This document shows, piece after piece, positions 2,987 through 61,691 of a DNA stretch of 64,000 nt; position 1 is the stretch's first letter, and each line of letters begins with the position of its first letter. Where the stretch lies: the IMG/VR virus record IMGVR_UViG_3300020577_010124, positions 64,001 to 128,000 of that record. One strand, 5' to 3'. Below the pieces are notes generated by a model. The model did no database searches and was not told the DNA's origin. It worked only from the letters and a program-made list of their open reading frames with translations. The translations under genes and the position numbers were made by a program. This DNA comes from a virus (taxonomy: Duplodnaviria; Caudoviricetes).

Positions 2987-2988
2987 TA

Positions 2989-43079: not shown

Positions 43080-46000
43080 ATGGCGTTCAAAGGCAAAAAA
43101 ACAGGCGGAAAAGGACAAGTTATAGCCGTTGGTCATGATTTTAATGACCTAGCTCCAACTCCATCTCCTATCCCAACACCCCCAGCCCCTCCTACTCCTA
43201 TAATCAATAGTTTTGGCGTAAACAACGCTAACCTTGCTTATGGAGGAGGCTCTGTTGTTCTAACATGGTCAACTTCAAATGTTACTACGGTTAGCATTGA
43301 TAACGGAGTTGGAACGGTTTCTGTAAATAGTAGCGCTATTGTAAATGTAACTGAAAGTACAACGTTCAATCTTTCTGCAACAGGACCAGGCGGAACAGCT
43401 TATGCAAGCGTAAGCGTATCTGTTGCTCCGCCACCACCTCTTCCTACTGTTACGTCTTTTAGCGCTTCTCAAACAACCCTATCCGCTTCTGGCGGTTCTG
43501 TTACTCTAACATGGACTTCTAGTAATGCGACTAGCGCAACTATGGATCAAAGCGTTGGAGCAGTTGCGGTTAATGGAAGTACCGTTGTTTCTGTAACATC
43601 AACTAAGACATTCACTCTAACTGTTAGTAACGTAACAGGCTCAACGCAAGCGACCGTTACGATTACAGTATTGCCTGCTGTTCCAGCAATTACGAGCTTT
43701 ACTGCTTTGCCAGCAACCTTGCCATTTGGAGGAGGTTCTGTTACTCTAACATGGACAACCTCAAATGTATCAAGTGTTAGTATAGATCAAGGAGTCGGTT
43801 CTGTTGTTGTTAATGGCAGTACAAGCATAAGCATAACGGATAGCACGACTTTCAATCTAACTGCAACGGGGCCAGGTGGAACGGTTTATGCAAGCGCAAG
43901 CGTAACAGTGAACTCTGTTCCGCCTCCACCTCCATTGCCAACTATTTCTAGTTTCACTGCTACTCCTTCTACATTTGCAGCAGGCGGTGGAACTACTACT
44001 TTTAACTGGACTTCTAGCAATGCAACTAGCGCAAGCATAGATCATAGTGTTGGAAGTGTTTCAGTTAATGGAAGCACTACAGCCAGCGTAACAACAACGA
44101 CTACTTATACGCTAACTGTTACAAATATAACAGGATCGACACAAGCTAGTGTTACAGTTACCGTATCTCCGCCCATACCGTCTATTACTTCTTTTACTGC
44201 TTTGCCTTCGACGCTTCCGTTTGGAGGAGGAACGGTAACTCTAACATGGACAACTTCAAACATAACTTCTGTTACTATTGATAACGGAGTTGGTTCTGTA
44301 GCAACAAACGGCAATACTACTAAAGCTATAACGACAAGTACGACTTTCAATCTAACTGCGACAGGTCCAGGTGGAACGGTGTTTGCAAGCGCGAGCGTTA
44401 CTGTTTCTCCTCCACCACCTCTTCCTGTTGCTACGAGCTTTACGGCAACGCCTTCTACTTTAGCATTTGGTGGTGGAAATGTAACATTGGCATGGACTTC
44501 AACAAATGCGACAAGCGCAAGTATAGATCAGGGAGTTGGTAGTGTAGCAGTTAATAGTAGTACGGTTGTAAATACAACGACTTCTAGAACATATACGCTA
44601 ACCGTTAGCAATGTAACAGGATCGACTACTCGAAGCACAAGCGTTGTTGTTTCTCCTCCATTGCCTCTTATCAATAGTTTTACTGCAAATCCAACAAGTC
44701 TCGGATTTGGAGGCGGAAACGTAACGTTATCGTGGTCAACTTCTAATGCAGTAAATGTTAGCATCAATAATGGAATAGGAACAGTTGCAGCAAGCGGCTC
44801 GATGGTTGTAAATATAACAACATCTACAGGCTACATACTAACAGCGACAGGAGCAGGAACAGGTATTGATAATACAATAACTAGGTCTGTCTCGATAACC
44901 GTTGCAAGCATACCAGCTTTTACTCCATATGCTGATGTTAATTTGCCTGCCCTAGAAGCAGATAGGTTTTGTTTCTTCTTAGAAACTATGCACTTTGGTC
45001 TTTCAAATGCATGGTATCATACTTTTGTTATTGGAGACAATGTTGGATTTAATAGTCAGTTTCCAGATCTAAACCATATGGTTTGGAAGACGAAGATGAT
45101 TGCTCCAGAAATTAGAATAAACACTTATAGCTGGGGCTATGCGGTTGGAGATCCAGGAACGGCATGGCGAGATGAAGTTTTGTTTGTAAAGCAAAAGTTT
45201 GAAGAAGCAAACTGCCCGTTTGAAAGATATACACTCAACTGTTATCCATTTATGCAGGGGCCAGGAGGCTTCCAAGGAAATCCAAAGAATACTTATCCTC
45301 TTGCTGATCATCCTGATGATTTGTTGCCTTCTGACGGTAGAGCAGCAGGCGGCGCTCAAGACGGTAACTTCTTAGGAGCAACTAACCAAGTAACTCCTTA
45401 TAGAATTAATGCGATAAACGCTTTTAGAAATACCTTTATTACCGATTTTCCTATTATACGTCAACAGTTTGATTTGGCAGGGCTTACAGGTCCAAACGCT
45501 CCTAGACTAGAAGCGATTGTAAGTACACAAGAGCATTTTGGTAGAAACTCTGATTTTGCTCCTGATACTCCAAATGTTCCAACTGTTATTTGGACTAATC
45601 CTGATAGTGTTGACTTTAATAGACAAGGCTGGGTAACAAGGAGTCTTGCTAGTCCTCTTAGTAATAGTAACCTATTTGATGGTTCACAGACTTTTACTAA
45701 TTTCTGTAATACCGTAACTCTTAGAAATGGAGCGCCCGTTCCTCCTCCTCGCTGGGATAGATGGCAGGGTCGAGGTGGGGCGATGGCGGAATTTGAAGGC
45801 GTAGATCAGTTTATCTTTATTACGCCTTATCGAGAAGCATTCTGGGCTGCAACTACACATGCATTTTATAAGGGTTATGTAGAGCCATTCTTTATGGCGT
45901 TTGATTCCGCATTCCCCAATCTCAAACATTATGCCTATCAAGTGTATGGAACAGGCTCATCTCTTGGCGGAATAACAATATTGCCAGGCGGAGATCCCGT

Positions 46001-46595
46001 ATATACAAAGACTCAAGGAACTTTCCCTTATCGTTTGCGAGGACATGGAATAGACTGGTATGGAGAAGGGTTAGGCGGACCTTGCTTTACTTGGAGACAG
46101 TTCTATGATGGAAACATTTGGACTTTGGTAAGCGGAGATACAACAAATAGTTATGCGAATACAACCTTTCATTGGATTAAATATATACTGTTGACATGGC
46201 CTAATCCTCATACAGATCCATTTAATGATAACAGAAATCTTGCTGCTGCTTATAACTATCCTCAAATTCCAGAGCCATATAAAACAAATTGGACAGTAGG
46301 AGATTATCATTGGTGTCAGGCTGTAAGGTTTATACTTGCTATATATGAGCTTAGAATAGCTTATCCTAACGACGGGATATGTCCTTGGATGACTTTGTAT
46401 TACCTTAGAGATCAGACATCATGGAAAACCTTCAAATGGGTAATTCATAGAATGCGAGCTATGGGAGTAAGAAGAGCTTATCTGTGGGATAACTTCTTTA
46501 CAATCAATGATTATTGCGGCGCTGGGTTGAAAAAGGATTTGTTGTTAGAACTGTTCAAAGAAATCAAACCCGATTGGGCAACGGCTGGATGGTAA
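43080..46595 (+). CDS. Adhesin/depolymerase-like protein: short basic N-terminus, seven Thr/Ser-rich Ig-like (PKD-like) repeats, ~550 aa aromatic-rich C-terminal domain
   Basis: Repeat consensus PxITSFTA.P.TL..GGG.VTLTWT.SNxTS..IDxGVGSV..NGS.......T(F/Y)xLT; Trp/Tyr/Phe-rich globular C-terminus. Confidence 0.7.
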   Translation: MAFKGKKTGGKGQVIAVGHDFNDLAPTPSPIPTPPAPPTPIINSFGVNNANLAYGGGSVVLTWSTSNVTTVSIDNGVGTVSVNSSAIVNVTESTTFNLSATGPGGTAYASVSVSVAPPPPLPTVTSFSASQTTLSASGGSVTLTWTSSNATSATMDQSVGAVAVNGSTVVSVTSTKTFTLTVSNVTGSTQATVTITVLPAVPAITSFTALPATLPFGGGSVTLTWTTSNVSSVSIDQGVGSVVVNGSTSISITDSTTFNLTATGPGGTVYASASVTVNSVPPPPPLPTISSFTATPSTFAAGGGTTTFNWTSSNATSASIDHSVGSVSVNGSTTASVTTTTTYTLTVTNITGSTQASVTVTVSPPIPSITSFTALPSTLPFGGGTVTLTWTTSNITSVTIDNGVGSVATNGNTTKAITTSTTFNLTATGPGGTVFASASVTVSPPPPLPVATSFTATPSTLAFGGGNVTLAWTSTNATSASIDQGVGSVAVNSSTVVNTTTSRTYTLTVSNVTGSTTRSTSVVVSPPLPLINSFTANPTSLGFGGGNVTLSWSTSNAVNVSINNGIGTVAASGSMVVNITTSTGYILTATGAGTGIDNTITRSVSITVASIPAFTPYADVNLPALEADRFCFFLETMHFGLSNAWYHTFVIGDNVGFNSQFPDLNHMVWKTKMIAPEIRINTYSWGYAVGDPGTAWRDEVLFVKQKFEEANCPFERYTLNCYPFMQGPGGFQGNPKNTYPLADHPDDLLPSDGRAAGGAQDGNFLGATNQVTPYRINAINAFRNTFITDFPIIRQQFDLAGLTGPNAPRLEAIVSTQEHFGRNSDFAPDTPNVPTVIWTNPDSVDFNRQGWVTRSLASPLSNSNLFDGSQTFTNFCNTVTLRNGAPVPPPRWDRWQGRGGAMAEFEGVDQFIFITPYREAFWAATTHAFYKGYVEPFFMAFDSAFPNLKHYAYQVYGTGSSLGGITILPGGDPVYTKTQGTFPYRLRGHGIDWYGEGLGGPCFTWRQFYDGNIWTLVSGDTTNSYANTTFHWIKYILLTWPNPHTDPFNDNRNLAAAYNYPQIPEPYKTNWTVGDYHWCQAVRFILAIYELRIAYPNDGICPWMTLYYLRDQTSWKTFKWVIHRMRAMGVRRAYLWDNFFTINDYCGAGLKKDLLLELFKEIKPDWATAGW
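43197..44910 (+). repeat. Seven ~240-255 bp intragenic tandem repeats with alternating A/B subtypes
   Basis: Units end alternately in TFNL(S/T)ATGPGGT (A) and TLTV(S/T)N(V/I)TGST (B). DNA identity is visible: actctaacatggac at ~43503, ~43743 and ~44238; acgactttcaatctaactgc at ~43845 and ~44340. Confidence 0.9.
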
Positions 46596-46599
46596 CTAA

Positions 46600-49500
46600 A
46601 TGATATTAACTAAAGCATCAGTTTTTCTTAGAATCGTTGGCAATCCAAGTTCCTTGGTAAGTTTTGTAGTTCCAGAAGAAGGCTTTGTTTCTTTTGATGC
46701 AGCCAATTTTTCCAAGTTAGAACAAGGTGATCCATACGTTGTATTTGATGTTGTTGCGGACGACTATTATGGTAGTGGTTATCTTTCTGTTGGATACAAA
46801 AGACTTGAATACCTATGGCCGACTATTACGTATCCTATTACAGCAGAAAAGACAGGAAAGTATAATCTCTTTATCCGAGTCAAAACTTCGGGCGAGTTTT
46901 TCAACTTTTCTCTTCTTATCAACGGTGTAAATCTTCTTGATAAGATAGTTACGACTCCTCAAAATCAGTGGACATGGATATCTCTTCCATTGGTTATAGC
47001 TGACAAGAAGAAGTTTGATCTTTCAATCATACCGAAAACCGAAGGTTGTTTGATTGATAGTTTTCATATTTCTGTCAACGATACTTTGCCAGATGTAATA
47101 GAATACCAAAATAGTTTTCTAACCGTACATTTTAGAATGTATGAAATAGATTCGGATTATCAACCAAATATATCATTGCCAATCTACGGCTACAAGACTT
47201 CTATAGAAGATATTCTCGATGATAACTGGTACAATTTTTCTCTTGAAACATTGCCAGCTTATATTTCCAAGACATTCAATCTTCACTATGCGGCAACGTT
47301 GTTTGTTTCTGGATCGAGCGAGAGTCTTTACATTATGTGGGACTATGCTCAAGACAATGGATTTACTTTAGATCCATATCTTCAGACTTGTTCTCTTGTT
47401 TTGGATTCTGATACAAAGACATGGAGCATTGATTGCGAAAAGAAGTTTGCATTGCGTCTTTATTCTTCAAGAGACGCTATAGACGAAAACGCATGCAAAG
47501 CAATCGTGCCTGCTTCTGCTTTGACTACAAAGACCGTCAAAACATTTAGCACGAATACTAGCCCAGTTTTTGTAAATACTAAAGCCGTTCCTACAATAGA
47601 AAATGAAGAAAAAGTACAGCTTAGTTTGCCTGATAGAATCGTTTCTATTGTTATGGACCAAAGCGGTTCTCAAACATGGAATGATAGTAGCGGCGTTCGC
47701 CATGAACTAGCAAGAAGAATGGTAGATAAACTAAACGCTACTTATCCAGGCGATTTGAAATACAATCTTGTTAATTTTCAATCAACTCCTATAAAGATTA
47801 ATTTCTTTGCGGTAACTGAAAATGACAACCTCAACACAAGCGATGCAGGCGCTGCGGCAAGTGAGTTTTTTGAAGACCAAGAGAGCGGATACGCAGGCGT
47901 TAGAATCGTTCGTAAGCAAGGTTCTTATCCAACTGGCCCTCTTGACGGCGATATCGTAACTGAAGGTTTTCTAGAAAGAGCATTTAGCGATGGTCTTGAG
48001 GAAGGCCAAGAGTATTACTACGCAGCCTATACATTCAACTCTTCAGGAGTTTTTAGCGAGGGAACCTTTATTAAGGCAACTCCTAGAGAAAGAATACTTC
48101 CTCACGGCGTTGGTAATTTTACAAGCAGAGTAATAATAGGAACAGGTGTTCGTAGAGACGAAAACACAATTGGTCTATGGCATTTCAATGAAGGCATAGA
48201 TCAAACCATTTATGATTTTAGCGATACTTCATTTACGCTTACTAGCAGCGATGATTTCATATGGCTTAACTTTAGCGATGTTCCAAGCGGAACAAGCGGA
48301 GTTAGATTCAATGGAACAGCAACTCGTTTTGTTGGAACCGACAGTAACGGAGATTTTGTAAAGAGTCATTATACAATGATGGCTTGGATATATCCGTTTG
48401 ACTTCAACTCTAAGAGAACAATCGTTTCGAGAGAATCTTCTTCTACTAGTGCTGTTGGATTCCGTTTCGGAATCAATACCAATAAGACTTTGTTTTTTAC
48501 GTTAGATGATTCAACAATAGCTAGCTCTTCTGCTTTGCTTACAGCAAATCAATGGAATCATGTTGCCGTTACCGTTGATGTTAGCGGAAACGTCGCTAGC
48601 TTTTATATCAATGGATATTTTGCTGGCTCAGGAACATTGGCTCAGGGAGCTAATCATTCTGTTGCCGCAATGAACTTGTATATTGGCGGAAGACAAAGCT
48701 CGTTCTTTGGAAAAATGACGGAGCTAAGTATTCATGATAGTTTGCGTTCTGCTGCATACATCGCTGAGGCGGCGGTTCAGCCTGAAACTTCTACTGATAA
48801 ACTTCTAGACAATGGCGATAGGCTTGTTCTTCTAACTTATGTTGTTTCTGACGACTTTAATTATCCTGGCGGAACTGTAAGAATACTTAGAAAGGAATCC
48901 GTTGGGCCTGCGGTTTTTGATTATGCTACAAGTTCCTCGGGTTCGTCGCCTCAGTTGGTGTTCAAAGGATTTGGCGCTGGACCGTCTCATGAAAATGACG
49001 GAGATGTAGTTTATGAAACTTCAGCTTCTTCTGGTTCATTTACTATAGCTCTTCCTTATGATTATGTTCTTGACAGAACCTATAACTATCGAATATACTC
49101 TAGTAATGTATTAGGAAACTTTAGTTCAAACTCTGACTCTCCAACTATACCAATCAAGATTCCTAATTTCAAGACGAAGGCTGCTCGAAATGCAGCTATC
49201 TCTATGCCTCTAATCGCTCCTGTAGAAAATGCTACGCTTACGATTGGAAATCATAAGAACTATATAACATGGGACGCAGTAACCGACGAAAATGCCGAGC
49301 AAGTTTTGGTATATTGGTCTGATTCTGGATTCCCTATTATCAGTAATGACCAGGGCGTAGACGCAGGAGCCATCTTGGTTTTTAGCGGCAAGCCTTCGGA
49401 TACCTATGTAGTAGATAGAAATATAGATAATCAAATTGTTAGTTACTATGCTATTGTTGTTGCAGATAAGTATGGATTTTATTCGCAGCCAGTTTTTGTA

Positions 49501-52500
49501 TCTGGCGTTCCTGTATCAAATGCTTTTGAGGGGAATATTCCTCTTCTTACTATTAGCAACCTTGGTTATCAGATTGTAAACGAGAATGCTCTTAGCTTGT
49601 CATGGGACGCTCCTGTAAAGTTCCAAAAGGATATTGAGGCTTGGTTTGATCAAAGAGTTGCATTGTACGCTCAGATTACAGACGAGTTTGGCGCGCCTAT
49701 TGCAGATAATAGTCAGATCAGCTTTACAGCAACTGCGTCTGTAGGGTCTGCTCAACTTGCGGAAGATGTTTTCGGAGAAACGATAAGCGGACAAGCATTA
49801 GTGCCTGACGCTAAGAGTTGTTTTATTCTGTCTTCTTCTTCCATTGGTAACGGATTCATTCGCGGCGTTTTCAGAATGACATCTGACCTTGATATACTAT
49901 CCGCAATTAATCAACTTTCAGCAGATGTTAGAGTTTCATATAGCATCCCTGATAGAGACAACCCAGGCTCGAACGTGTTTGAGTTTACTTCGCTTCCTGT
50001 TCATATAGAGATGGACAATCCATTCTCTATGGAAATGCTCAATATTGGCGATAATAACGGATTCTTTGGAGAAGGAACGTCTTCGGGACGAGGCTCTAAG
50101 AGACGAAGAAGAGGAAGTGGCGCGGCTCCTCATGTTGGTTCAGCAGCTACAAGCGCTGGCGGTGATACCGTTAAGGTTCTTTGCAAGAGAACGGTTCCGT
50201 TAGACGACCAATCCTTTATATCAAGCGGTGGTTTGGAGTTCGATCCTGATAAGTTCAAAGAATTCCCAGGCTGTTGGATAAGAAGAACAAGACCATTTGT
50301 ATCAAGAGTTGTTATTCTATATCGAGGAGAAGCGATTTCAAATGCTCCTGATTGCGACGTAGCAGTATTTGAAGCCTCGGACCCTCAGTGCGATCGAGAT
50401 GATAGCTCTAGCAATCCATGTTCTCAAAGCGGCGGAGGAGCTTCTAGTTCTCCGCCTGAGTTTGTTCCAGGCTTTTCTTCTCGAAGAAGTCGTTCGGTAC
50501 AACCTCCTGCTACTTCTTTGCCTTTCCGAACAGGCCTTCAGTTACTTAATGACGGAACAACAAAGCTCGTTTCATATGTTGATATACCTTTGAAAGCGCC
50601 TAGAACTCCGCAAGCTATCATGCTGTTTGCAAAAACAGGCTACAACGGTTTCTTTGCTCGCAAGAAAATGTATGTTGTCTTTGATAATATTCTAAGAATT
50701 GAAACAACTATTGAGCCGCCAGAATCAAATTGCATTGACGTTGCGGAGCAACAAGCTAAAGTCTACCTTATTGATCCAGATAGTACGGACGTAGAAAATC
50801 CTAGAAAACTGGCCGTTCCAGACAGTCAGATTGTTCGTTGGGAATTGAGAAAAGGAACAAGCGGTAAAGATAGGCCATTCTACTCGACAGATAATGTCCC
50901 TACAGGACCAGGCGTATTTTCTTATACAAGAAGCGGAAGCGCTAGAAAAGTATTCTTCGGTCCAGCATGTGGTGTAACATGGCTAACTTATGTTCCATGT
51001 CCAGGCAATATAATCTTGTTGCCTGAGCTTTATGCTATTAAGGCAAGCGTCATATACGACGGACTGCACGCCTTTGAAGAACGTCCAGCTATAGTTTACC
51101 CGCCAGGAGACGTAAGAGGTTTTGGATCTCGCTTCCTCATGCAGATGCCAAACTTTGTAAATGACATATACGCAGACGGATATGATCTAGCTCACGTTAC
51201 TATTTATCACGACCCTAATATTGCTAGTGGTCAGATTGCTGATTGTTTCAAGCAATGCGCAAGAGATTTCAATAGACCAATCTTCTCTTTGGGAAATGGT
51301 CAGATTGTTGATATCGAATCAGGTGGCGACTTTGAGATTCTTTATGGAGATTCGTTGCAAGTTACGTTTGACGAGGCGTTAGACGAGTATGTTATAACGA
51401 ATGCTTCTCAAGAAATTGGGTTCGCTCAAATACCTCTTGCTCAAAGCGGTAATCGCACTGACTTTTACATACGAATCAATAAGTTCCTTGGAAGACCGCA
51501 ACCAGTCAAACCAAATGATAATCAAGACCAAGATCCTCTTAGCAGCACAAATCAATGTTCTTGTATAGAAGTTCCACCTGGACTTTCTAGTAAAACTGAT
51601 TTGAAGATAATAACTGGAAAGACCAGTATTATGTTCAATGGTCAAACAAGATTCTTGTCAGGCGGAGGAGATCTAAAGAATGGCGTTCCTCCAACAACAA
51701 TTGCTCTTAGAGAGCCATTGGATATTTCCATTGTTGATATTCGTCGTAATGGAGAAAGCGTTGAAAAGATCCTATGCGACAGTTTGAGCGTTCATGAGTT
51801 TATTGTTGAAGTAAAGTTCAAAGATAAAGCGGTTCCAAATGGAACACCTGTATTCCTAACTGTTGGCGGAATTAATCCAGAGAAGATTGTTCTTTTCTCT
51901 GATACTATTTTCACGCAAAAACTCAATGATCCTATACTTAACCCAGAGGGCAATAAGAGAAGCTTTGCTTCATTCTTTGTTTATCCATTCAGCGCTCAAG
52001 CTGCATTCTCGGGTCAAGTACAAGCAGAAACCAACTATGATAAGCGAGGCGACGTTGTTCGTAGTATGACAGCTTGTATTACGATCAAGTATGATCCTTC
52101 AGAAAAGAAGCCAGAAGCAACAGTAACTCCTGAAGGCGAAATAAGTAGCGTCTTTAGCGGATCGCTAGATGTTTATGACACGTATACGGATACTTGGTCG
52201 CAAAAAGCTCTAATGAAGTACCCAAGAGGTTGCTTGACTCTTGACTGGTCTTTCGATGCGTATGGAGAACAACTCTATGCGATAGGCGGACTTAATGGAA
52301 AATCAATCTTATCATACAATGAAATGTATGATATTGCAAACGACATATGGCATACTAAGAAACAAATGAGAGTTGCTAGATTCTACCATATGTCTGTTCA
52401 AGATTCAGGCTATATCTACGTATTCGGAGGAATCGTTGCGGACGGTTCTGTTCTTGCTATTTCTCGTTCAGTTGAACGTTATGATATCGTAAACGATGTT

Positions 52501-55500
52501 TGGGAAGACGTTGCTAGCTTGCCTATATTTGGAGAGAATCCATACGGCGTAGCTATGGGCGCTTGCGTAAAGCTTGATAATAAGGTTTACATAATCGGCG
52601 GAATCAGAAAGATTGGACCGCAAGGCAGCATCGAAGCTATGAACGACAGAGTTCTAGTTTTTGATTTGGATACTCAAACATGGAGTTGGAGTTCAGTATA
52701 TGAGGATCTTGATCTAGCGCTATTTACTAGAATATCTCCTACCGCTTTTGCTGACAAGAATGGCGGGTTTATTCATGTTCTTGGAGGAGCGGTAGCGGGA
52801 GAACGAGACGCAGATACGGGCGCTCAATCTCTTGAGTTCTTGACTGATACTTTCAACATCAATATCTCAACCTTTGCTGTTGTTCAAGACGACTATTTGT
52901 ATGATAACTTGCCTAAGCCTCGCTATCGTAATGGTCATGCTCAAATCGGAGACATTCATTATTTCTTAGGCGGAACAAATGGTAAGTCTCAAGTTCTAAA
53001 TCTCTTTGAGAGCGTAGAAGAGACTTCTCCAGTCTTTACCGAGCAAAGACTAGAAAACATGCCTAAAGCAAAGACGGCTTTTGGTTCTACGTCTGATAGT
53101 TGGAGATATGTCTATGTTGGTGGCGGACTAACAAGCGGTAGGCCTGAAGGTTTCCTTCAGATATTGGCAGAGGCTAATCCTGGTTCTATAAGATTGGATG
53201 GGCAGCAGTCTGCGACAGTAAATATAGAACTAAAGAATGACGTAGGCGAACATCCTAATAAGAGTATTAGAGTATTGGTTCAAGGTATTGTTCTTTTCAA
53301 GAATGCTACAGCAAATCAAGACGGTTCTGGTGGGACTAATTCGCAGCAACAATCTGCAAACAGCGCCGCCCGAGATGCTTTGATATATCCTGTTGTCTTT
53401 AGTTCTAACGACTTTGTTATAAACAATGGCGTTGGAGCAACTATAATGTTGCCAAGATCCGAAGACATACTCAAGAAGGTTGATGAAATCAAGAGAAAAC
53501 TTGGAATTGTTGATCCAGTAACGGGCGATAACGGACAAGCAGAAGACAATACGCTTGTTATCAATGAAGGCGAAATTCGCAATCCATATACTATCAAAGT
53601 AAGAATAACTATTCTTGACGGATTCTATTATGGTCAAACCGTAATAGACATCAAAGATAATCAGGATTCAAGCGTATCTACAACTCCTGTTGAGTTACCG
53701 CCTCCAACCGAAACAACAACTACAGTTAGCACTCCTAGCGGGCCTCAAACTACGACTACAACTACCTTCTCTGGATGTAAAGAGGCAAGCGGCAGTCAGT
53801 TTGCTCCTATAGCTAATCAAGGTTCGCAAACGCCTACAACGGACGGAAGCAACGTTGTCATCGATCAGGGTTTGCAGCAGTCAGATAATCCTATATTTGA
53901 CCTAAACCCTTCTCAAGCTCCTCAACTTGATAGTCCAACGGTTTCATACTTCAGCGATATCGAATGGATACCTCAAGTTATTATTAGCGTAGATAACGGA
54001 GATTATGGCAGCATTATCAAAAATCTCAATAGAATGCGTAATGAAATACCATTTGGAGCTTCGCAACTTTATGACGCTCTTTCCAAAACAGCTTCTCTTA
54101 TGCTTGGCGAAGAACTTGATTCGTTTGCCAAATCAATCTATGTAAACACTGACAATGAGGAAAATCTATCCTTTGTTACTGTAGATACTGCTATTGAAGA
54201 TATACAAGCGGTTGACGGATTTGCGGAAACGCCTGTTTTGATAAACAACCTCTCTGTTGTTTTCCCTCTAACTCTATCTGCTCAGCTTGCTAGAACCGAT
54301 ACTGAAAATCTGGATAGAATCTCAAATGAAACAGGCGGACAAAGCCAAACGGTTATTGACGCAAGTTATATTGATGAAGTTCTAAACAATGCGATAGGAC
54401 GAGTAACGGGCTCAATTGGATGGGGCATTTATGAGTGCATAATCGACCTTGGCAAGAACTCTATTATCAATACGATAGCAATTGAGTGCGAGCTATATCC
54501 AAATACAGAGGGCAATTGGAAGATATCAACGAGCGAAGACGGATTCAACTATTCAGTTTATAGTGATCCATTCAATGTCAACAAAGACATACAACTAACA
54601 AACGTTGTTGGAAGATATCTAAAGTTCTCTATTACTCTTTTGAGCGGACTTAGCGCTTCCATTGAAAGCGAGTATGATCTTACTCCAACCCCAGGCGTTC
54701 CAGCTATAACTGGTATATTGATTGATTATAACATCCCAACGGAGAGTTTCATATATATGAACTCAGACGTATTGGATCGTAGTCCTCAACAAGTCGCTAT
54801 TGCTGTATCTGCAAACAGACCGTTGCTAAGCGAAATAGATGTTGGCGTTACAACTAGTAAGTCAACTAATTGGTCAGATTATTATAGCGGTTCTCAACCA
54901 TCAGTTGATAGATTCGGAAAGATATTTGTTCCTATTCGTTATACACAAACGCAAGATCATACTCTAGACGAATCTCTAGAAAACATTGACGGCTTTATGT
55001 GGAAAACAATCTATGGAAGATGGGATGTTACTTCTCAAGTAACAATCAAAGACGAAGATAACAATATCGTTGATCCAGATATTTATAGGCTGTATCCGCA
55101 AGAAGGAATGGTTATTTTTAACTCCAAGCAAACTGGTTCTTTCAGTATTTCTGTAGAGAATGCTGGACGAATCAAAGTTGGTTTGAGAGTCTTGAATAGC
55201 GATTCAGAACAAGCGGTTCAGATAAACGGTCTAGGCTATATGTATAACACCAATGTATTCTTGCCACCGCCTCTATCTCAGCGCCCTCCAACCGTTACGG
55301 ATTTCAATATTACTCCATCTGAACTGACAATATATCAGAAGATTGGACTAACCTATAGATACTTTGACATTAACCAACTTGACGAGCAGCTTGATAAATC
55401 CGAGATCAAATGGTTCATTAATGGTGTTGAAGTTGAGTATCTAAGAAATGTTCGAACATGGAATGATATAACAAATACGGAAGATCCTATTTGGATTTAT

Positions 55501-56340
55501 GCGTTTACTTTTAGCTCAAGCGATGTTCCTAGCGGAACAACCGTAGAACAATACGCTCGTTCTCGCGGCGAAAGCATACTAAAAGTAGGCGATAGCGTTT
55601 ACGCAACTATTCGAGCAAATGACGGAACCCTATTCAGCGAAGTAGTTCGTTCTCAAGCTCTTAGTGTTATAGAGGCTCCTCCGTTTATCTCTAACGTTAT
55701 AGTAAAGGGAAAGAGAAATGACGGTTCGCTTCAAGATACTGTAACAACTGCTACAAGAGCATTTGCTAGCTTTGCTTTCTTCCAAGACGGAACAGGAACA
55801 ACCAAGTCGCAGATCATCTGGTTTGTCAATGGTATTGAGTTCAAGAGAGGAAACCTCAATGAAATCGTTGGAGGTATTTCCAACAACGAAATTATTGTTG
55901 GAGAAATCAAGAACAACATTCTTGGTATAACTTTGGGCAATACTATTGAGGTTCAGATACTTCCAGTTTCAGGTTCTATTATTGGAAATCCAGTAACTAG
56001 TTCTCCTATCTCTGTAGAGAATGATCCTCCTTCTGTAAGAAATGTAGCAGTCAGCCCAAGTCCAACAGCTTCGTCGTCGTCAGCATTGCAGCTAACGTAT
56101 GTCTACGTTGATGTAGAATCTCAACAACAAGGCAGTACGCAGAACGACCAGAGTTCCGTCAAGTGGTATCGAGCCGCAAGGGGTTCAAGCGAGTTTGTAG
56201 AGGTTAGTTCTTTGCAAAATCAGAAGATTGTCCCTGCGGTGAATACCTCTTCGGGCGAGATGTGGAAAGCCGAAGTAATTCCATTCGACGGAATTAGCGT
56301 TGGCACAACTGTAGTAAGCAATATCATAACGATTATTTGA
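46600..56340 (+). CDS. Giant (3246 aa) virion protein with split VWA domain, LamG domain, FN3-like domains, Kelch propeller and C-terminal Ig-like repeats
   Basis: MIDAS VMDQSGS at ~47650; LamG GLWHFNEG...TMMAWIYP...WNHVAVT...FYING...FGKMTEL (~48165-48770); Kelch YAIGG, YVFGG, YIIGG, HVLGG, YFLGG, YVGGG (~52165-53140); second VWA half LYDAL...TDNEEN...ETGG (~54000-54350). Confidence 0.75.
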   Translation: MILTKASVFLRIVGNPSSLVSFVVPEEGFVSFDAANFSKLEQGDPYVVFDVVADDYYGSGYLSVGYKRLEYLWPTITYPITAEKTGKYNLFIRVKTSGEFFNFSLLINGVNLLDKIVTTPQNQWTWISLPLVIADKKKFDLSIIPKTEGCLIDSFHISVNDTLPDVIEYQNSFLTVHFRMYEIDSDYQPNISLPIYGYKTSIEDILDDNWYNFSLETLPAYISKTFNLHYAATLFVSGSSESLYIMWDYAQDNGFTLDPYLQTCSLVLDSDTKTWSIDCEKKFALRLYSSRDAIDENACKAIVPASALTTKTVKTFSTNTSPVFVNTKAVPTIENEEKVQLSLPDRIVSIVMDQSGSQTWNDSSGVRHELARRMVDKLNATYPGDLKYNLVNFQSTPIKINFFAVTENDNLNTSDAGAAASEFFEDQESGYAGVRIVRKQGSYPTGPLDGDIVTEGFLERAFSDGLEEGQEYYYAAYTFNSSGVFSEGTFIKATPRERILPHGVGNFTSRVIIGTGVRRDENTIGLWHFNEGIDQTIYDFSDTSFTLTSSDDFIWLNFSDVPSGTSGVRFNGTATRFVGTDSNGDFVKSHYTMMAWIYPFDFNSKRTIVSRESSSTSAVGFRFGINTNKTLFFTLDDSTIASSSALLTANQWNHVAVTVDVSGNVASFYINGYFAGSGTLAQGANHSVAAMNLYIGGRQSSFFGKMTELSIHDSLRSAAYIAEAAVQPETSTDKLLDNGDRLVLLTYVVSDDFNYPGGTVRILRKESVGPAVFDYATSSSGSSPQLVFKGFGAGPSHENDGDVVYETSASSGSFTIALPYDYVLDRTYNYRIYSSNVLGNFSSNSDSPTIPIKIPNFKTKAARNAAISMPLIAPVENATLTIGNHKNYITWDAVTDENAEQVLVYWSDSGFPIISNDQGVDAGAILVFSGKPSDTYVVDRNIDNQIVSYYAIVVADKYGFYSQPVFVSGVPVSNAFEGNIPLLTISNLGYQIVNENALSLSWDAPVKFQKDIEAWFDQRVALYAQITDEFGAPIADNSQISFTATASVGSAQLAEDVFGETISGQALVPDAKSCFILSSSSIGNGFIRGVFRMTSDLDILSAINQLSADVRVSYSIPDRDNPGSNVFEFTSLPVHIEMDNPFSMEMLNIGDNNGFFGEGTSSGRGSKRRRRGSGAAPHVGSAATSAGGDTVKVLCKRTVPLDDQSFISSGGLEFDPDKFKEFPGCWIRRTRPFVSRVVILYRGEAISNAPDCDVAVFEASDPQCDRDDSSSNPCSQSGGGASSSPPEFVPGFSSRRSRSVQPPATSLPFRTGLQLLNDGTTKLVSYVDIPLKAPRTPQAIMLFAKTGYNGFFARKKMYVVFDNILRIETTIEPPESNCIDVAEQQAKVYLIDPDSTDVENPRKLAVPDSQIVRWELRKGTSGKDRPFYSTDNVPTGPGVFSYTRSGSARKVFFGPACGVTWLTYVPCPGNIILLPELYAIKASVIYDGLHAFEERPAIVYPPGDVRGFGSRFLMQMPNFVNDIYADGYDLAHVTIYHDPNIASGQIADCFKQCARDFNRPIFSLGNGQIVDIESGGDFEILYGDSLQVTFDEALDEYVITNASQEIGFAQIPLAQSGNRTDFYIRINKFLGRPQPVKPNDNQDQDPLSSTNQCSCIEVPPGLSSKTDLKIITGKTSIMFNGQTRFLSGGGDLKNGVPPTTIALREPLDISIVDIRRNGESVEKILCDSLSVHEFIVEVKFKDKAVPNGTPVFLTVGGINPEKIVLFSDTIFTQKLNDPILNPEGNKRSFASFFVYPFSAQAAFSGQVQAETNYDKRGDVVRSMTACITIKYDPSEKKPEATVTPEGEISSVFSGSLDVYDTYTDTWSQKALMKYPRGCLTLDWSFDAYGEQLYAIGGLNGKSILSYNEMYDIANDIWHTKKQMRVARFYHMSVQDSGYIYVFGGIVADGSVLAISRSVERYDIVNDVWEDVASLPIFGENPYGVAMGACVKLDNKVYIIGGIRKIGPQGSIEAMNDRVLVFDLDTQTWSWSSVYEDLDLALFTRISPTAFADKNGGFIHVLGGAVAGERDADTGAQSLEFLTDTFNINISTFAVVQDDYLYDNLPKPRYRNGHAQIGDIHYFLGGTNGKSQVLNLFESVEETSPVFTEQRLENMPKAKTAFGSTSDSWRYVYVGGGLTSGRPEGFLQILAEANPGSIRLDGQQSATVNIELKNDVGEHPNKSIRVLVQGIVLFKNATANQDGSGGTNSQQQSANSAARDALIYPVVFSSNDFVINNGVGATIMLPRSEDILKKVDEIKRKLGIVDPVTGDNGQAEDNTLVINEGEIRNPYTIKVRITILDGFYYGQTVIDIKDNQDSSVSTTPVELPPPTETTTTVSTPSGPQTTTTTTFSGCKEASGSQFAPIANQGSQTPTTDGSNVVIDQGLQQSDNPIFDLNPSQAPQLDSPTVSYFSDIEWIPQVIISVDNGDYGSIIKNLNRMRNEIPFGASQLYDALSKTASLMLGEELDSFAKSIYVNTDNEENLSFVTVDTAIEDIQAVDGFAETPVLINNLSVVFPLTLSAQLARTDTENLDRISNETGGQSQTVIDASYIDEVLNNAIGRVTGSIGWGIYECIIDLGKNSIINTIAIECELYPNTEGNWKISTSEDGFNYSVYSDPFNVNKDIQLTNVVGRYLKFSITLLSGLSASIESEYDLTPTPGVPAITGILIDYNIPTESFIYMNSDVLDRSPQQVAIAVSANRPLLSEIDVGVTTSKSTNWSDYYSGSQPSVDRFGKIFVPIRYTQTQDHTLDESLENIDGFMWKTIYGRWDVTSQVTIKDEDNNIVDPDIYRLYPQEGMVIFNSKQTGSFSISVENAGRIKVGLRVLNSDSEQAVQINGLGYMYNTNVFLPPPLSQRPPTVTDFNITPSELTIYQKIGLTYRYFDINQLDEQLDKSEIKWFINGVEVEYLRNVRTWNDITNTEDPIWIYAFTFSSSDVPSGTTVEQYARSRGESILKVGDSVYATIRANDGTLFSEVVRSQALSVIEAPPFISNVIVKGKRNDGSLQDTVTTATRAFASFAFFQDGTGTTKSQIIWFVNGIEFKRGNLNEIVGGISNNEIIVGEIKNNILGITLGNTIEVQILPVSGSIIGNPVTSSPISVENDPPSVRNVAVSPSPTASSSSALQLTYVYVDVESQQQGSTQNDQSSVKWYRAARGSSEFVEVSSLQNQKIVPAVNTSSGEMWKAEVIPFDGISVGTTVVSNIITII

Positions 56341-56341
56341 T

Positions 56342-57106
56342 ATGTCTAAAGAAGCATACTTCCCTACAACTGTAGTTGTTCTCTGTTATAACAACAGAAG
56401 TGTTACGGAAAAGTTTATGGAACTTTTCAAGGCTAACACAACTAACTACAATCTGATTATCATTGACAACGGTTCCTCTGATGGGACCGTTGATTATCTT
56501 AATGAAATCTTTCCTACATTTGAAGGCAATGCCGAGCTAATACTTAATCAAGAAAACTTGGGTGTCATTGGCGGACGCAACCAGGGTTTTGGAGAGTTCT
56601 TGAGTCAAGCTCCTTATCCAACAAAAGGAATGCCGTTTCGATATTCCGAATATTTATGCTTTCTCGATAATGATCAGTTTGTTAGACAAGGATGGCTTAC
56701 TCAATATCATGAGTTTATGCAAAAGGGTAACTATGATATGATAGGAGCGGACGCTTGGCTAATGGATTCAAAGTTTATGCCAAGACACAACTGTTCAAGG
56801 GCTGGGGAATCTTTTACCTATGTTGGTTGCGGCGGAATGATGATAAAGCGAAAGGTTGTTGAAGACCTAAAAGGCTTTGATCCTCAGTTTAATCCAGCAT
56901 ATTTTGAAGATCCTGATTACAACTTTCGCGCAAGAGAAAAAGGCTATAAGATTGGCTGGAACTATCAAGCTCGAATAACTCATCTTCCGCATCAAACCCT
57001 AGGCAAGTCAAATGATAGAATGAAATATTTTGTACAAAGCTTTGATAGGTTCAAGGCAAAATGGAAGGGTAAGGAATTTCCTGCCCTTAGACAAAATCCG
57101 ATTTAA
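56342..57106 (+). CDS. GT2 family glycosyltransferase (GT-A fold)
   Basis: VVVLCYN, IIIDNGSSDGT, ENLG...RNQG, FLDND, FDPQFNPAYFEDPDYNFR. Confidence 0.92.
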   Translation: MSKEAYFPTTVVVLCYNNRSVTEKFMELFKANTTNYNLIIIDNGSSDGTVDYLNEIFPTFEGNAELILNQENLGVIGGRNQGFGEFLSQAPYPTKGMPFRYSEYLCFLDNDQFVRQGWLTQYHEFMQKGNYDMIGADAWLMDSKFMPRHNCSRAGESFTYVGCGGMMIKRKVVEDLKGFDPQFNPAYFEDPDYNFRAREKGYKIGWNYQARITHLPHQTLGKSNDRMKYFVQSFDRFKAKWKGKEFPALRQNPI

Positions 57107-57110
57107 CTGC

Positions 57111-58226
57111 ATGAAGCTTTTAGTATGCACTAATTTTGCCCAACCCTTTCATACAGGCGGAGCCGAGAGGGTCGTTCAGCAAATAACAGAATCGCTTACC
57201 CAAGAACATAAATGGGAATGCTCTGTTCTATGTCAATTTGGAACTAAACCTATTGTTCATAATGGAGTTCAGGTAATTCCTATTGGCAATGCTCCCGAGA
57301 AGACTTTTCTAGATACTGTCGAAGCTATAAATCCTGACCATATCTTTGTTTACAGCGATTGGTATTCTCATTGGGAAACCTTGCTCAAGAATGCCGAAAA
57401 ACTTCGCGCAAAAAAGAGTATTGGACTGGTCGGAATGAATCGGATGCGTTCTCCGCTTACTGCCAACGCCTCAATAGCTCAATCATTTCGGTCTAAGCAT
57501 CATTTGTTCAAAGTATTAGCTCATGCAGACAAGTATATAGATGCTCAAACTTGTAGAGAATGGGGAATCCCTGTTTCAATTATACATAATGCAATAGACC
57601 TAGAAGAATTTTCTCCTCCAACTCTTGATTTTAGGAAAGTATACAATATCAAGACTAAGAAGATGCTTCTATGCGTGGCTAACTTTTTTCATGGTAAAGG
57701 ACAGGAATATTTACTTCCTATTATGAAAAGGTTATCAGACCAGGATGTAACTCTTGTGTTTATTTGTTCTACTTTGGCATTTCGTCCAGGAAACCTCAGG
57801 ATGAAGCAAATATCAGAGCAGATAACGAGAATGAATCTTCCTATACGCATTCTTCAAGATATCCCTCGATCTCATGTTATATCAGCGTATTTTGCCTCAG
57901 ACGCTTTTGTTTTCCCTTCGCAAACTGAATGCGGCCCCATTGTAGTTCTTGAATCTATGGCCGCAGGGAAGCCTTGGGTTGCTCTAAATGTTGGTCATAT
58001 CCCCGAACTCAAAGGGGGTATTTGCGTGCATTCCGTGCCAGGCAGGGGCGAATACCTAGCTTTTGACGATCGAGTTTCTACCGAGTTTGAAAGCGCAACT
58101 CGGAAACTGCTTTCGGATTCAACTCTTTCCGAGCAGATGGGCTTTGAGGGTCGGGCGCAAATAGGCCAAGAATACAATTGGTCGATTATAAGTAGACAGT
58201 ATAAAGAGTTTTTTGAAAGTGCCTAA
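57111..58226 (+). CDS. GT4 family glycosyltransferase (GT-B fold)
   Basis: Likely start is ATG at 57111 (MKLLVCTNF.P..GGAER); IHNAID; KGQE; DAFVFPSQTECGPIVVLESMAAGKP with an intact EX7E. Confidence 0.92.
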   Translation: MKLLVCTNFAQPFHTGGAERVVQQITESLTQEHKWECSVLCQFGTKPIVHNGVQVIPIGNAPEKTFLDTVEAINPDHIFVYSDWYSHWETLLKNAEKLRAKKSIGLVGMNRMRSPLTANASIAQSFRSKHHLFKVLAHADKYIDAQTCREWGIPVSIIHNAIDLEEFSPPTLDFRKVYNIKTKKMLLCVANFFHGKGQEYLLPIMKRLSDQDVTLVFICSTLAFRPGNLRMKQISEQITRMNLPIRILQDIPRSHVISAYFASDAFVFPSQTECGPIVVLESMAAGKPWVALNVGHIPELKGGICVHSVPGRGEYLAFDDRVSTEFESATRKLLSDSTLSEQMGFEGRAQIGQEYNWSIISRQYKEFFESA

Positions 58227-58953
58227 AGTAAGCGTCATAACTCCCGTCTACAACTGCGAATCCTTTGTCAAGGAATCGTTGTCTTCTGTTCTGAATCAAA
58301 CTTTTCAGGATTTTGAGTTCATCATTATCAATGATGGCTCGACCGATAAAACTCATGATATCGTCTCGTCCTTTAAGGACAAGCGTATTCGTTACATAAG
58401 TCATGAAGACAATAAGGGAGTTATGGAGAGATCGAAGGAAGCTATTGAGCTTGCCGTAGGAGAATATATTGCCGTCCATGACGGAGACGACGTAAGCATG
58501 TCTATTCGCTTAGAGCAAGAAGTGGCCTACCTAGATGCTAACCCTGAAATTTTTTGCGTAGGTGGACGAGCAAAGAAGATAGACATGAATGGATTCTTCA
58601 TAGGAGACTGGGACTTCCCAACTCCTAATCATGACGACATTGTAAAGATGCTAAGGATACATAAAAAATGCCCTATCATCAATCCTACCTCAATGTACCG
58701 TCTTTCAGTCTATAACGAACTAGGCGGGTATTCTTCTCGCAAAGAAGTAGACGGCGCTCATGATTTCGACTTTTGGTGCCGAGCTATCTTGGCGGGTAAG
58801 AAGTTTCATAATATACAAGACTATCTGATCAAATACAGAGTAAACACAGAAGGCATGACTCGTAGACAGAAGCTAAAACAGTTTGCTGCATATAACACGG
58901 TCATGCTTGAATTTTTGCAAAGGATAAAGAATGTTCAACTTCACGGCTCCTAA
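58213..58953 (+). CDS. GT2 family glycosyltransferase
   Basis: KVSVITPVYN...SVLNQTFQDFEFIIINDGSTD...GEYIAVHDGDD...DFDFWCR. Start could be TTG 58213 or GTG 58219. Confidence 0.93.
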   Translation: MKVPKVSVITPVYNCESFVKESLSSVLNQTFQDFEFIIINDGSTDKTHDIVSSFKDKRIRYISHEDNKGVMERSKEAIELAVGEYIAVHDGDDVSMSIRLEQEVAYLDANPEIFCVGGRAKKIDMNGFFIGDWDFPTPNHDDIVKMLRIHKKCPIINPTSMYRLSVYNELGGYSSRKEVDGAHDFDFWCRAILAGKKFHNIQDYLIKYRVNTEGMTRRQKLKQFAAYNTVMLEFLQRIKNVQLHGS

Positions 58954-60124
58954 ATGGACTAATGAGCAAATGGAGATTTTGTACACGGAGCGTCAAAAAG
59001 GAACTCCATACAAAGTCATCAGTAACATGGTTAAAAGATCTGAGGGCGCTTGCTCAGATAAGTACCTATCAACCGATTGGTCGCAATATGACTTTTTTGT
59101 TGCGGACGCAGACGAGATAAAGAAAGCAAAGATCGAAGAAGGCAACTTCAAGGTTGAGCTTAGTATCCAAAACAAGCTTGCGAAGTTTCAGCTTCAGGCG
59201 GATATTGTTGCGGACAAGCTTTTCCAGGCGGCAAGAAAACTCCCTATTGCTCCTATGCCTGTTTATCAGCCGTCTAATCAGCAGAAGCGAACCGCTGAAG
59301 ATATGGGGCTTATTCTAAGCGATCTTCATATTGGACATGAACATACCAATGAAGAAACAGGCGGTCTATCAGAATACAATCTAGACATTTTCCATCAAAG
59401 AATGGAAAACCTGCGGTTGGCCGTTACGGACATCAAAGAACTTCATTCAAAGCTTTATAACATTCCTAAGCTGCATATCTTTTGTTTAGGAGATATCGTA
59501 GAAGGAGCTAATACTGCGGGCGCATGGTCGCCTGTGTATATTGGTACGCCTATCTTCGATCAGGTTATGATTGGTTATAGAACCATTGCTGACTTCATCT
59601 ATTATATGCTTACCTTGTTTGAAGAAGTTCATTTCTATGGTTTGGGCGGAAATCACGGTCGTATCGCTCCTAGCGGCGCAGAAAAGAAGTATAACAACTT
59701 TGATCATTTCTGTTATAAGTATCTTGAGCTAGAGTTCAAGAACGAACCTCGAATCAAGTTCCATGTTCCAAAGACCTGGTGGATGATTGAGGAAATATTG
59801 AATCATAAGTTCCTCATGGTTCACGGCGACGACGTAAAAGCCAAGAACCCTCCTGTTTCTTCGTTCTTGGAACTTGAGCGAAAGATGACAGGTATTACAA
59901 AGCAGATTCCTAACTATACGCTTTGCGGTCACTTCCATAATTGCTCAGAGTATACAACTCACAATGGTAAGGTTCTTATGAATGGTTCATTCGTAGGAGC
60001 AGACGTTTATTCTTTGAGTAATGCAATGCCTGGAACAAGTCCAGAACAGAAGTTGTTTGGAATACATCCGAAGATTGGTATTACTTGGACTTATAATGTC
60101 AATCTAAAGCATTCCCGCAACTAA
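58931..60124 (+). CDS. Calcineurin-like metallophosphoesterase with N-terminal HTH/Myb-like domain
   Basis: SDLHIG, GDIVEG, GNHGR, HGD and GHFH motifs; N-terminal WTNEQ...L...G.PYK.IS..V.RS. Confidence 0.88.
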   Translation: MFNFTAPKWTNEQMEILYTERQKGTPYKVISNMVKRSEGACSDKYLSTDWSQYDFFVADADEIKKAKIEEGNFKVELSIQNKLAKFQLQADIVADKLFQAARKLPIAPMPVYQPSNQQKRTAEDMGLILSDLHIGHEHTNEETGGLSEYNLDIFHQRMENLRLAVTDIKELHSKLYNIPKLHIFCLGDIVEGANTAGAWSPVYIGTPIFDQVMIGYRTIADFIYYMLTLFEEVHFYGLGGNHGRIAPSGAEKKYNNFDHFCYKYLELEFKNEPRIKFHVPKTWWMIEEILNHKFLMVHGDDVKAKNPPVSSFLELERKMTGITKQIPNYTLCGHFHNCSEYTTHNGKVLMNGSFVGADVYSLSNAMPGTSPEQKLFGIHPKIGITWTYNVNLKHSRN

Positions 60125-61483: not shown

Positions 61484-61691
61484 GTTGATGTCTGATCTAA
61501 AGACTCAACCAGGCGTATTCCCTAATGAGAATAATGACGGTCAAGGCGGATTGTTTTATCAAGATCCTGCCGATGATCCTCAATCCATTATAAAGAGATG
61601 GAATCGAAAACAGAGAGTTCCTAAGCAACGCATTTACCAGCTAGGAATAGACGTACCAAGTGTGATAAAGAATAAGCCAGGGATGTTATGA
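61452..61691 (+). CDS. Hypothetical protein
   Basis: 79-aa ORF (GTG 61452, or ATG 61488); its stop forms an ATGA overlap with the helicase. Confidence 0.55.
   Translation: MKLIQTPSLIKLMSDLKTQPGVFPNENNDGQGGLFYQDPADDPQSIIKRWNRKQRVPKQRIYQLGIDVPSVIKNKPGML

What the first reader, a model, noticed from the sequence alone, without database searches (positions are those of the whole stretch)
47641..54350. VWA domain split by a ~2,050-aa insertion containing LamG, FN3-like and Kelch domains
Seen: the N-half VSIVMDQSGSQTWND...R......V..L......YNLVNF (aa ~348-393) has no nearby continuation. The missing half, IIKNLNRM...PFGASQLYDAL...KSIYVNTDNEENLS...LDRISNETGGQSQTV, appears at aa ~2467-2585. Known: VWA runs DxSxS, GxT.L..AL, TDG, L..IA..TGG contiguously over ~180 aa. 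Inference: either one MIDAS domain closes around a giant looped-out insert, which would be an exceptionally large domain insertion, or the halves complement between subunits to polymerise the protein. No intein motifs were seen.
Basis: partly seen in the sequence, partly recalled or inferred. Interest (0 to 1): 0.78.

Follow-up and report, generated by a model that had tools for sequence, protein, structure and literature searches.

The report
Phage vWA domain split by giant insert
A 3,246-residue virion-region protein of an uncultured giant phage encodes one small metal-binding adhesion (vWA) domain in two pieces 2,049 residues apart, and many related phages put the pieces on separate proteins, so the domain probably acts as a clasp joining distant or separate parts of a giant fibre.

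Summary
ORF 46600-56340 (+) encodes 3,246 aa. Residues 345-405 are the first third of a vWA domain: strand, DxSxS metal motif, helix, strand. Residues 2455-2601 are the remaining two thirds. Between them lie 2,049 residues with FN3-like, LamG and Kelch domains.

Evidence for each half:
- 25 of 26 N-halves hit Pfam VWA_2.
- The C-half folds alone at pLDDT 79.5. It superposes only on the last ~135 residues of solved vWA domains (Z 11.4), so it lacks exactly what the N-half carries.
- The joined profiles align end to end with canonical vWA domains.
- All five metal-site residues are essentially invariant in more than 100 (N) and 180 (C) family sequences.

Among 163 family proteins, 87 carry both halves, always 1,452-2,886 residues apart. 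None is contiguous. The other 76 carry only the C-half. In 10 loci read, the N-half lies on the upstream gene, and the cuts fall at several different points.

Best reading (0.72): one vWA/MIDAS domain assembled from distant or separate segments, working as a clasp. This scan has already reported the same architecture in orthologues from other genomes.

The parts
46600..56340 (+). Whole ORF, 3,246 aa: giant virion-region protein that carries the split vWA domain
   Evidence: Full-length orthologues at 28-64% identity on phage contigs up to 548 kb.
46600..47394 (+). Module A (aa 1-~265). It is a separate gene, or the tail of the upstream gene, in many relatives.
   Evidence: in L014 and L016-L026 the match to aa 1-259 lies on a different ORF.
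47632..47814 (+). vWA N-half (aa 345-405): beta1, DxSxS MIDAS loop, alpha1, one or two strands
   Evidence: Pfam VWA_2 profile positions 3-52 of 107. 25 of 26 relatives hit VWA_2. hhalign maps it to vWA columns 9-40.
47656..47670 (+). MIDAS motif D353-Q-S355-G-S357
   Evidence: D 106/106, S355 105/106, S357 105/106 distinct family sequences with a residue at the column; the one exception at each Ser is Thr.
47815..53961 (+). Inserted excursion, 2,049 aa. It holds the FN3-like, LamG and Kelch domains and the linker listed below, plus unassigned domains.
   Evidence: The gap is 1,452-2,886 aa in all 87 single-chain family members.
47896..48078 (+). FN3-like beta-sandwich (aa 433-493)
   Evidence: AlphaFold2 on A4: four strands, block pLDDT 80-86.
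48349..48765 (+). LamG / concanavalin-like domain (aa 584-722)
   Evidence: PF13385, E 4.2e-21.
52162..53163 (+). Kelch beta-propeller (aa ~1855-2188)
   Evidence: Several Kelch Pfam families. PDB profile hits at E 1e-48.
53161..53190 (+). Position (aa ~2188-2197) where relatives have a stop codon and a new start, separating gene B (with the N-half) from gene C (with the C-half)
   Evidence: eight loci with clean stop/ATG junctions in different frames.
53662..53934 (+). Thr/Ser/Pro/Gln-rich low-complexity tether (aa 2355-2445) just before the C-half
   Evidence: for composition. The A1 consensus is unconserved here.
53962..54402 (+). vWA C-half (aa 2455-2601): beta3 to alpha6, with MIDAS Ser2488 (nt 54061-54063) and Asp2518 (nt 54151-54153)
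   Evidence: AlphaFold2 pLDDT 79.5. VIA Z 11.4, rmsd 2.3 A over 127 residues to TFIIH p44 vWA; integrin alphaM I domain residues 178-315. All 7 PDB profile hits are vWA domains. hhalign 94% to vWA columns 64-168. S/T2488 181/181 and D2518 181/181.
54412..54759 (+). Possible discoidin-like (F5/8 type C) domain after the vWA (aa ~2605-2720)
   Evidence: Weak only: PF22633, E 0.33. Orthologue P0012 carries PF00754 in the precomputed list.

Best explanation
The protein holds one vWA (von Willebrand factor A) domain with a complete metal-ion-dependent adhesion site (MIDAS), and that domain is encoded discontinuously. Residues 345-405 supply the central strand beta1, the DxSxS loop, helix alpha1 and the next strand or strands. 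Residues 2455-2601 supply the rest of the sheet, the other helices and the Ser and Asp metal ligands. About 2,050 residues of other domains (FN3-like, LamG, Kelch and unassigned ones) loop out of the beta2/beta3 hairpin region. They return through a ~90-residue flexible Thr/Ser/Pro-rich tether. Once folded, the small domain acts as a clasp that ties the start and end of this long arm together. In relatives where the arm is cut into two genes, the same clasp would join two polypeptides non-covalently, with the metal site built from both chains. Shown here: the two segments are complementary parts of a vWA; they are conserved; they always occur together; and they lie on two genes in many relatives. 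Inferred: that they physically assemble, that they bind a metal, that they work as a clasp, and that the protein is a virion fibre or adhesin (from gene context only).
For: 1. N-half identity. VWA_2 covers profile positions 3-52. 25 of 26 relatives hit VWA_2, best E 1.3e-7, and 12 hit PF00092.
2. C-half identity. The AlphaFold2 model has pLDDT 79.5. The top Foldseek and VIA hits are all vWA domains, at Z 11.4 and rmsd 2.3 A over 127 aa. They align only to the C-terminal part of those domains: integrin alphaM I domain 178-315, vWF A3 974-1107, p44 111-238. The model therefore lacks beta1-alpha1-beta2. The PDB profile search returned 7 hits, all vWA, in register on the G-x-T and TDG motifs.
3. 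Complementarity. The joined N+C profile aligns with canonical vWA domains over query columns 14-235 against template 9-169 of 185 (93%, E 2.6e-7). N alone maps to columns 9-40 and C alone to 64-168.
4. All five MIDAS residues are essentially invariant across 106 N and 181 C distinct sequences, many at about 25-30% identity.
5. Neither half has a local partner. In the model of aa 275-520 the N-half scores pLDDT 33-73 while the adjacent FN3-like domain scores 80-86. None of 46 complete C-only proteins has a DxSxS strand upstream of its C-half.
6. The family search gave 257 representatives at E<=1e-3. Of the proteins in hand, 87 have both halves with a gap of 1,452-2,886 aa, and none is contiguous.
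7. The halves lie on adjacent genes in L017-L020, L022, L024-L026, L030 and L032, with clean gene junctions and at least three different cut positions. The architecture changed at least 4 times on the C-half tree.
Against: No model or experiment shows the halves together. The complex predictor was unavailable, and a joined sequence cannot be submitted to the folding tool. A co-variation analysis between the halves was uninformative. Sequence evidence for the window's own C-half is weak: no Pfam hit alone, and PDB profile E-values of only 0.01-0.17. The joined profile scores no better against vWA than the C-half alone. It is unresolved which N-half strand corresponds to beta2 and which to beta3. 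The virion role rests on neighbouring genes only.
Confidence: 0.72

Rival explanations
1. Domain-swapped assembly. The N-half of one copy pairs with the C-half of a neighbouring copy rather than its own. The split vWA would then link subunits into a ring, an oligomer or a chain.
For: Relatives with the halves on two genes show that pairing between chains must work if the domain forms at all. Repeated fission and fusion at several points suggests covalent continuity is not needed.
Against: Nothing here separates this from closure within one chain. The ~90-residue flexible tether before the C-half fits either reading. No stoichiometry or symmetry information is available.
Confidence: 0.2
2. The halves never meet. 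An ancestral vWA domain was broken by the insertion or by gene rearrangement. Each remnant persists as a separate structural element, and the C-half is a self-sufficient truncated alpha/beta domain.
For: The C-half alone gives a fairly confident model. Association has not been demonstrated. The inter-half co-variation signal is absent or uninformative.
Against: All five metal-site residues, spread over both halves, are essentially invariant in 106 to 181 diverged sequences, which is hard to explain without a shared site. The N-half does not model as a folded unit with local sequence. The C-half model lacks the central strand of the sheet. The two halves always co-occur in the same protein or the same locus.
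Confidence: 0.06
3. Artefact: an assembly chimera, a mobile-element or intein insertion, or a mis-called ORF creates the appearance of a split domain.
For: None found.
Against: The ORF is uninterrupted. The same layout occurs in independent metagenomes and in 27 viral loci. Pfam shows no intein or Hint family at E<=1. The insert is conserved structural sequence along its whole length.
Confidence: 0.02

Closest known systems
Canonical vWA / integrin alpha-I type domains with a MIDAS (Pfam PF00092, PF13519; solved examples hit here: integrin alphaM I domain 1mf7, vWF A3 1atz, TFIIH p44 8ebu_E, TRAP 4f1j)
   Same: Same fold elements in the same order. Same DxSxS, Ser/Thr and Asp metal ligands, and the same TGG motif before beta6.
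   Different: Canonical domains are contiguous, about 180-200 aa. Here 2,049 aa (1,452-2,886 in relatives) separate the first ~50-60 residues from the rest, and often a gene boundary does too. The metal-site Thr is Ser in 177 of 181 sequences.
Gram-positive pilus tip adhesins RrgA and GBS104 (PDB 2ww8, 3txa, 3tvy; hit)
   Same: A MIDAS vWA domain in a long multi-domain adhesin, involved in nested domain insertions. From my own knowledge, the vWA carries inserted arms and is itself inserted into an Ig-like domain.
   Different: Those inserts are tens of residues, and the vWA is the guest more than the host. There are no split-gene forms.
Integrin beta subunit head (beta-I domain inside the hybrid domain inside the PSI domain) and the nested insertions of cyanobacterial RNA polymerase (PMC13114784)
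   Same: A discontinuous host domain that folds around inserted domains.
   Different: A survey of 48,551 insertion events reports inserts consistently smaller than their hosts (PMC13114784). Here the insert is about ten times the size of the host and contains many domains.
Donor-strand complementation in chaperone-usher pili (own knowledge)
   Same: One subunit has an incomplete fold, and a segment of another subunit completes it to give a very stable non-covalent joint. This is the closest functional analogy for the two-gene forms.
   Different: There, one beta-strand completes an Ig fold. Here a strand-helix-strand unit with three metal ligands would complete a Rossmann-like fold. The families are unrelated.

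Membership tests
vWA domain (PF00092 / PF13519) | DxSxS motif at the end of a hydrophobic beta1 strand, followed by helix alpha1 | tested here: met
   D353-Q-S-G-S357 follows the strand IVSIVM. VWA_2 covers profile positions 3-52. 25 of 26 relatives hit VWA_2. The helix is predicted at aa 366-381.
vWA domain (PF00092 / PF13519) | Second and third MIDAS loops (G-x-T and TDG-type Asp) | tested here: met
   G2486-A-S2488 and T2517-D2518 align in register with TRAP and with canonical vWA domains. S/T 181/181 and D 181/181. Ser replaces the usual Thr.
vWA domain (PF00092 / PF13519) | Rossmann-like alpha/beta/alpha fold with the six-stranded vWA sheet | tested here: inconclusive
   The C-half model matches the last ~135 residues of vWA structures at Z 11.4.
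vWA domain (PF00092 / PF13519) | Score above Pfam's curated cut-off | tested here: inconclusive
   The window's N-half scores 16-20 bits against a 27-bit cut-off, and the C-half alone has no hit. A third of a domain cannot reach a whole-domain cut-off. Whether any relative's N-half reaches it was not checked; the best E among them is 1.3e-7.
vWA domain (PF00092 / PF13519) | Divalent metal bound at the MIDAS | not testable with these tools
   Needs protein chemistry or a structure.
Discontinuous domain with a nested insertion | The two host segments fold together into one domain | not testable with these tools
Fold complementation between subunits (pilus donor-strand type, as a mechanism only) | One polypeptide carries an incomplete fold and the missing segment lies on a partner polypeptide | tested here: met
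   46 complete C-only proteins have no local DxSxS strand. The N-half is on the upstream gene in L017-L020, L022, L024-L026, L030 and L032.
Fold complementation between subunits (pilus donor-strand type, as a mechanism only) | The partner segment physically completes the fold | not testable with these tools

The most novel reading that the evidence does not exclude
Giant phages use a vWA domain assembled from two chains as a general, metal-dependent clasp. A strand-helix-strand unit with three MIDAS ligands on one giant subunit docks into a beta1-less vWA body on another subunit, or on the far end of the same chain. The metal site is therefore built across the joint. This would be a new kind of protein-protein lock and a natural split-domain system.
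Probability: 0.4. Interest if true: 0.85.

Novelty: new variant of a known kind. Interest (0 to 1): 0.68.

Why it matters
If the halves do assemble, three things follow.

1. This is one of the most extreme domain insertions known: an insert about ten times larger than its host, where a 2026 survey found inserts to be consistently smaller than hosts (PMC13114784).

2. It is a natural case of a Rossmann-like metal-binding domain that works equally well as one chain or as two. That bears on how giant phage fibres are built, and on how gene fission and fusion are tolerated in structural proteins.

3. It bears on protein engineering, as a natural split vWA that could serve as a metal-dependent association tag.

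It also warns annotators that domain searches will miss such a domain. Pfam sees only a sub-threshold third of it.

Tried and rejected
The direct co-fold test was therefore not done. A joined construct cannot be submitted to structure prediction.
- The PDB profile search with the full-length alignment was swamped by Kelch hits.
- A search for relatives with a short or absent insert found none among the best 150 of 257 representatives. The smallest gap is 1,452 aa. Hits 151-257 were not listed.
- Mean-field co-variation between the halves (96 pairs, effective number 87) was dominated by gap artefacts. Shuffled partner pairings scored as high, so it is uninformative either way.
- An HMM of the joined halves did not give a single spanning alignment on canonical vWA domains under HMMER. 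hhalign did.
- No similarity was found in GenBank phages by DNA or protein. A single-sequence viral scan also found nothing.
- Intein or mobile insertion was rejected: no such Pfam family and a conserved insert.
- Read-through or frameshift joining of genes B and C is unlikely, because the junctions differ in frame and spacing among loci.
- A literature search for a split, interrupted or discontinuous VWA domain found no papers.
Full report
**What is there.** The window is bases 64001-128000 of a 170.6-kb linear IMG/VR virus record, estimated to be 34% complete. All large ORFs lie on the + strand, and GC is about 40%. ORF 46600-56340 encodes 3,246 residues without a stop. Pfam finds LamG (aa 584-722, E 4e-21) and several Kelch families (aa 1855-2130). 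It also finds a sub-threshold VWA_2 match that covers only profile positions 3-52 of 107, at aa 350-400 (E 0.0016 for the piece alone; E 3e-4 in the six-frame genome search).

**Relatives.** A word-indexed search found 19 homologue clusters. Seventeen are full-length, collinear orthologues of 3,185-3,264 aa at 43-64% identity; two more (3,276 and 3,262 aa, 36% and 28% identity) match over about half the query, and one of 2,389 aa is N-terminally truncated. They sit on contigs up to 506 kb. A pattern scan of IMG/VR found 27 loci on contigs up to 548 kb. In the alignment of the 20 proteins, D353, S355, S357, G2486, S2488, D2518, T2578 and G2580 are invariant or nearly so. An exhaustive profile search with the C-half gave 257 representatives at E<=1e-3. 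GenBank phages hold nothing similar. The family is so far confined to uncultured giant phages.

**Is each half really vWA?**
- *N-half.* 25 of 26 relatives hit VWA_2 individually (best E 1.3e-7), and 12 hit PF00092. The best PDB profile hits include vWA domains aligned on the DxSxS strand: PTMP1, CobT and CLCA1.
- *C-half, by sequence.* Only 2 of 26 hit VWA_2. However, the profile's 7 PDB hits are all vWA domains (TRAP and the pilus adhesins GBS104 and RrgA), aligned in register on the G-x-T and TDG motifs.
- *C-half, by structure.* AlphaFold2 folds it alone at mean pLDDT 79.5, with the helix/strand order of vWA from alpha2 to alpha6. The top Foldseek hits are vWA domains of TFIIH p44 and p34, ITIH1, NorD, ANTXR and vWF A3.
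- *What the C-half lacks.* VIA-align gives Z 11.4 and rmsd 2.3 A over 127 residues. The aligned ranges are p44 111-238, integrin alphaM I domain 178-315, vWF A3 974-1107 and vWF A1 1323-1456. The match therefore runs to the end of each vWA domain but begins about 46-50 residues after its start. The missing part is beta1, the DxSxS loop, alpha1 and beta2, which is exactly what the N-half carries.

**Do the halves complement each other?** I joined the two sub-alignments in a script and compared them with five canonical vWA domains. One came from P0136 and four from P0161, both confirmed as vWA proteins by Pfam. hhalign aligns the joined profile end to end: query columns 14-235 against template 9-169 of 185, 93% probability, E 2.6e-7. 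The N-half alone maps to template columns 9-40, and the C-half alone to 64-168. In canonical domains the two profiles match about 68 residues apart. That is the spacing obtained in this protein once the insert is removed.

**Does either half have a local partner?**
- A model of aa 275-520 shows a confident FN3-like sandwich at aa 433-493 (block pLDDT 80-86).
- In the same model the vWA N-half scores pLDDT 33-73. Only alpha1 is formed, and the strands are not.
- Just before the C-half lies a 91-residue Thr/Ser/Pro/Gln-rich segment that is not conserved in sequence.
- None of 46 complete relatives that carry only the C-half has a DxSxS strand within 160 residues upstream of it.

That condition is not met.

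**Family-wide layout.** Of 163 family proteins in hand, 87 carry both halves, always 1,452-2,886 residues apart (median 1,971). None is contiguous. The other 76 carry only the C-half. In L017-L020, L022 and L024-L026 the region homologous to this ORF is three genes:
- gene A, matching aa 1-259;
- gene B, matching aa ~271-2188, with the N-half;
- gene C, matching aa ~2197-3246, with the C-half.

The junctions are ordinary stop/ATG junctions that differ in frame and spacing. Other cut points exist:
- before the Kelch propeller, in the P0053 contig and in L030 (a 1,773-aa gene plus a 1,096-aa gene);
- within or just after the Kelch region, about 330 residues upstream of the C-half, in L032 (a 1,926-aa gene plus a 1,095-aa gene);
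- after the vWA, in L028.

In L030 and L032 the upstream gene carries the N-half (E 4e-25 and 7e-22). A FastTree of the C-half needs at least 4 changes of architecture on well-supported branches, and 14 by parsimony. Most branches of that tree are weakly supported.

**Metal site.** Across distinct family sequences the MIDAS ligands are essentially invariant, although many of these sequences share only about 25-30% identity.

| Residue | Conservation |
|---|---|
| D353 | 106/106 |
| S355 | 105/106, the other is Thr |
| S357 | 105/106, the other is Thr |
| Position 2488 | Ser 177, Thr 4, of 181 |
| D2518 | 181/181 |

Three ligands lie on one segment and two on the other. This is the strongest indirect argument that the segments form one functional site.

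**Interpretation.** The best-supported reading is a single vWA/MIDAS domain assembled from two distant segments. A multi-domain arm of about 2,050 residues loops out near the beta2/beta3 hairpin. In about half of the family's representatives the arm is cut by a gene boundary. The vWA would then be completed across two polypeptides, by analogy with donor-strand complementation in pili (own knowledge). I cannot tell whether closure in the single-chain form is within a chain or between copies. The virion role is inferred from context. The upstream ORF matches PHROG 2155, "virion structural protein", at E 5e-73. The gene sits in a one-strand block of giant genes with glycosyltransferases.

**Limits.**
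- Co-variation between the halves was uninformative with about 87 effective sequences.
- The assignment of the two N-half strands (KYNLVNF and IKINFFAV) to beta2 and beta3 is unresolved. hhalign and Pfam disagree on it.

**Novelty.** No paper in the library uses any phrase for a split or interrupted VWA domain. A 2026 survey of 48,551 insertion events reports that inserts are consistently smaller than their hosts (PMC13114784). Here the insert is about ten times the host. This scan has already reported the same architecture in orthologues from other genomes, with the same reading. I reached the split-gene result independently, before looking those reports up.

Noticed in passing
window 46600-47394; L014, L016-L026: The first ~260 residues of this ORF are a separate module. 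In relatives this module is the C-terminal part of a different upstream gene of 286-782 aa. Gene boundaries along this structural block are therefore fluid on both sides.
   Followed up: partly
window 43080-46595: The upstream 1,171-aa ORF matches PHROG 2155, 'virion structural protein', at E 4.8e-73 with five repeated stretches. It is the only strong structural annotation near the finding.
   Followed up: no
window 56342-58953; L030 13307-14233; L031 5112-6038: A GT2-GT4-GT2 glycosyltransferase trio starts 2 nt after the stop codon of this ORF. A GT4 gene also directly follows the C-half gene in a distant relative, so the link between this protein and glycosyltransferases is conserved.
   Followed up: no
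L030 20653-23291: A related giant-phage contig encodes a translation initiation factor IF3 homologue (IF3_N plus IF3_C). It also encodes an AAA protein with a faint intein-splicing hit.
   Followed up: no
P0136: This 2,693-aa protein consists of 12 near-identical tandem vWA domains of 224 aa each. It was used here only as a canonical vWA reference.
   Followed up: partly
BFVD entry A0A248SJB6: The best viral structural match to the C-half is a giant viral protein stored in ~1,032-aa chunks, with no name available. It may be a distant homologue in a catalogued virus.
   Followed up: no
window 58931-60124 and 61688-63226: An exonuclease (PHROG 284, E 1e-46) and a ResIII/Helicase_C helicase follow the structural block. 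They mark its end.
   Followed up: no
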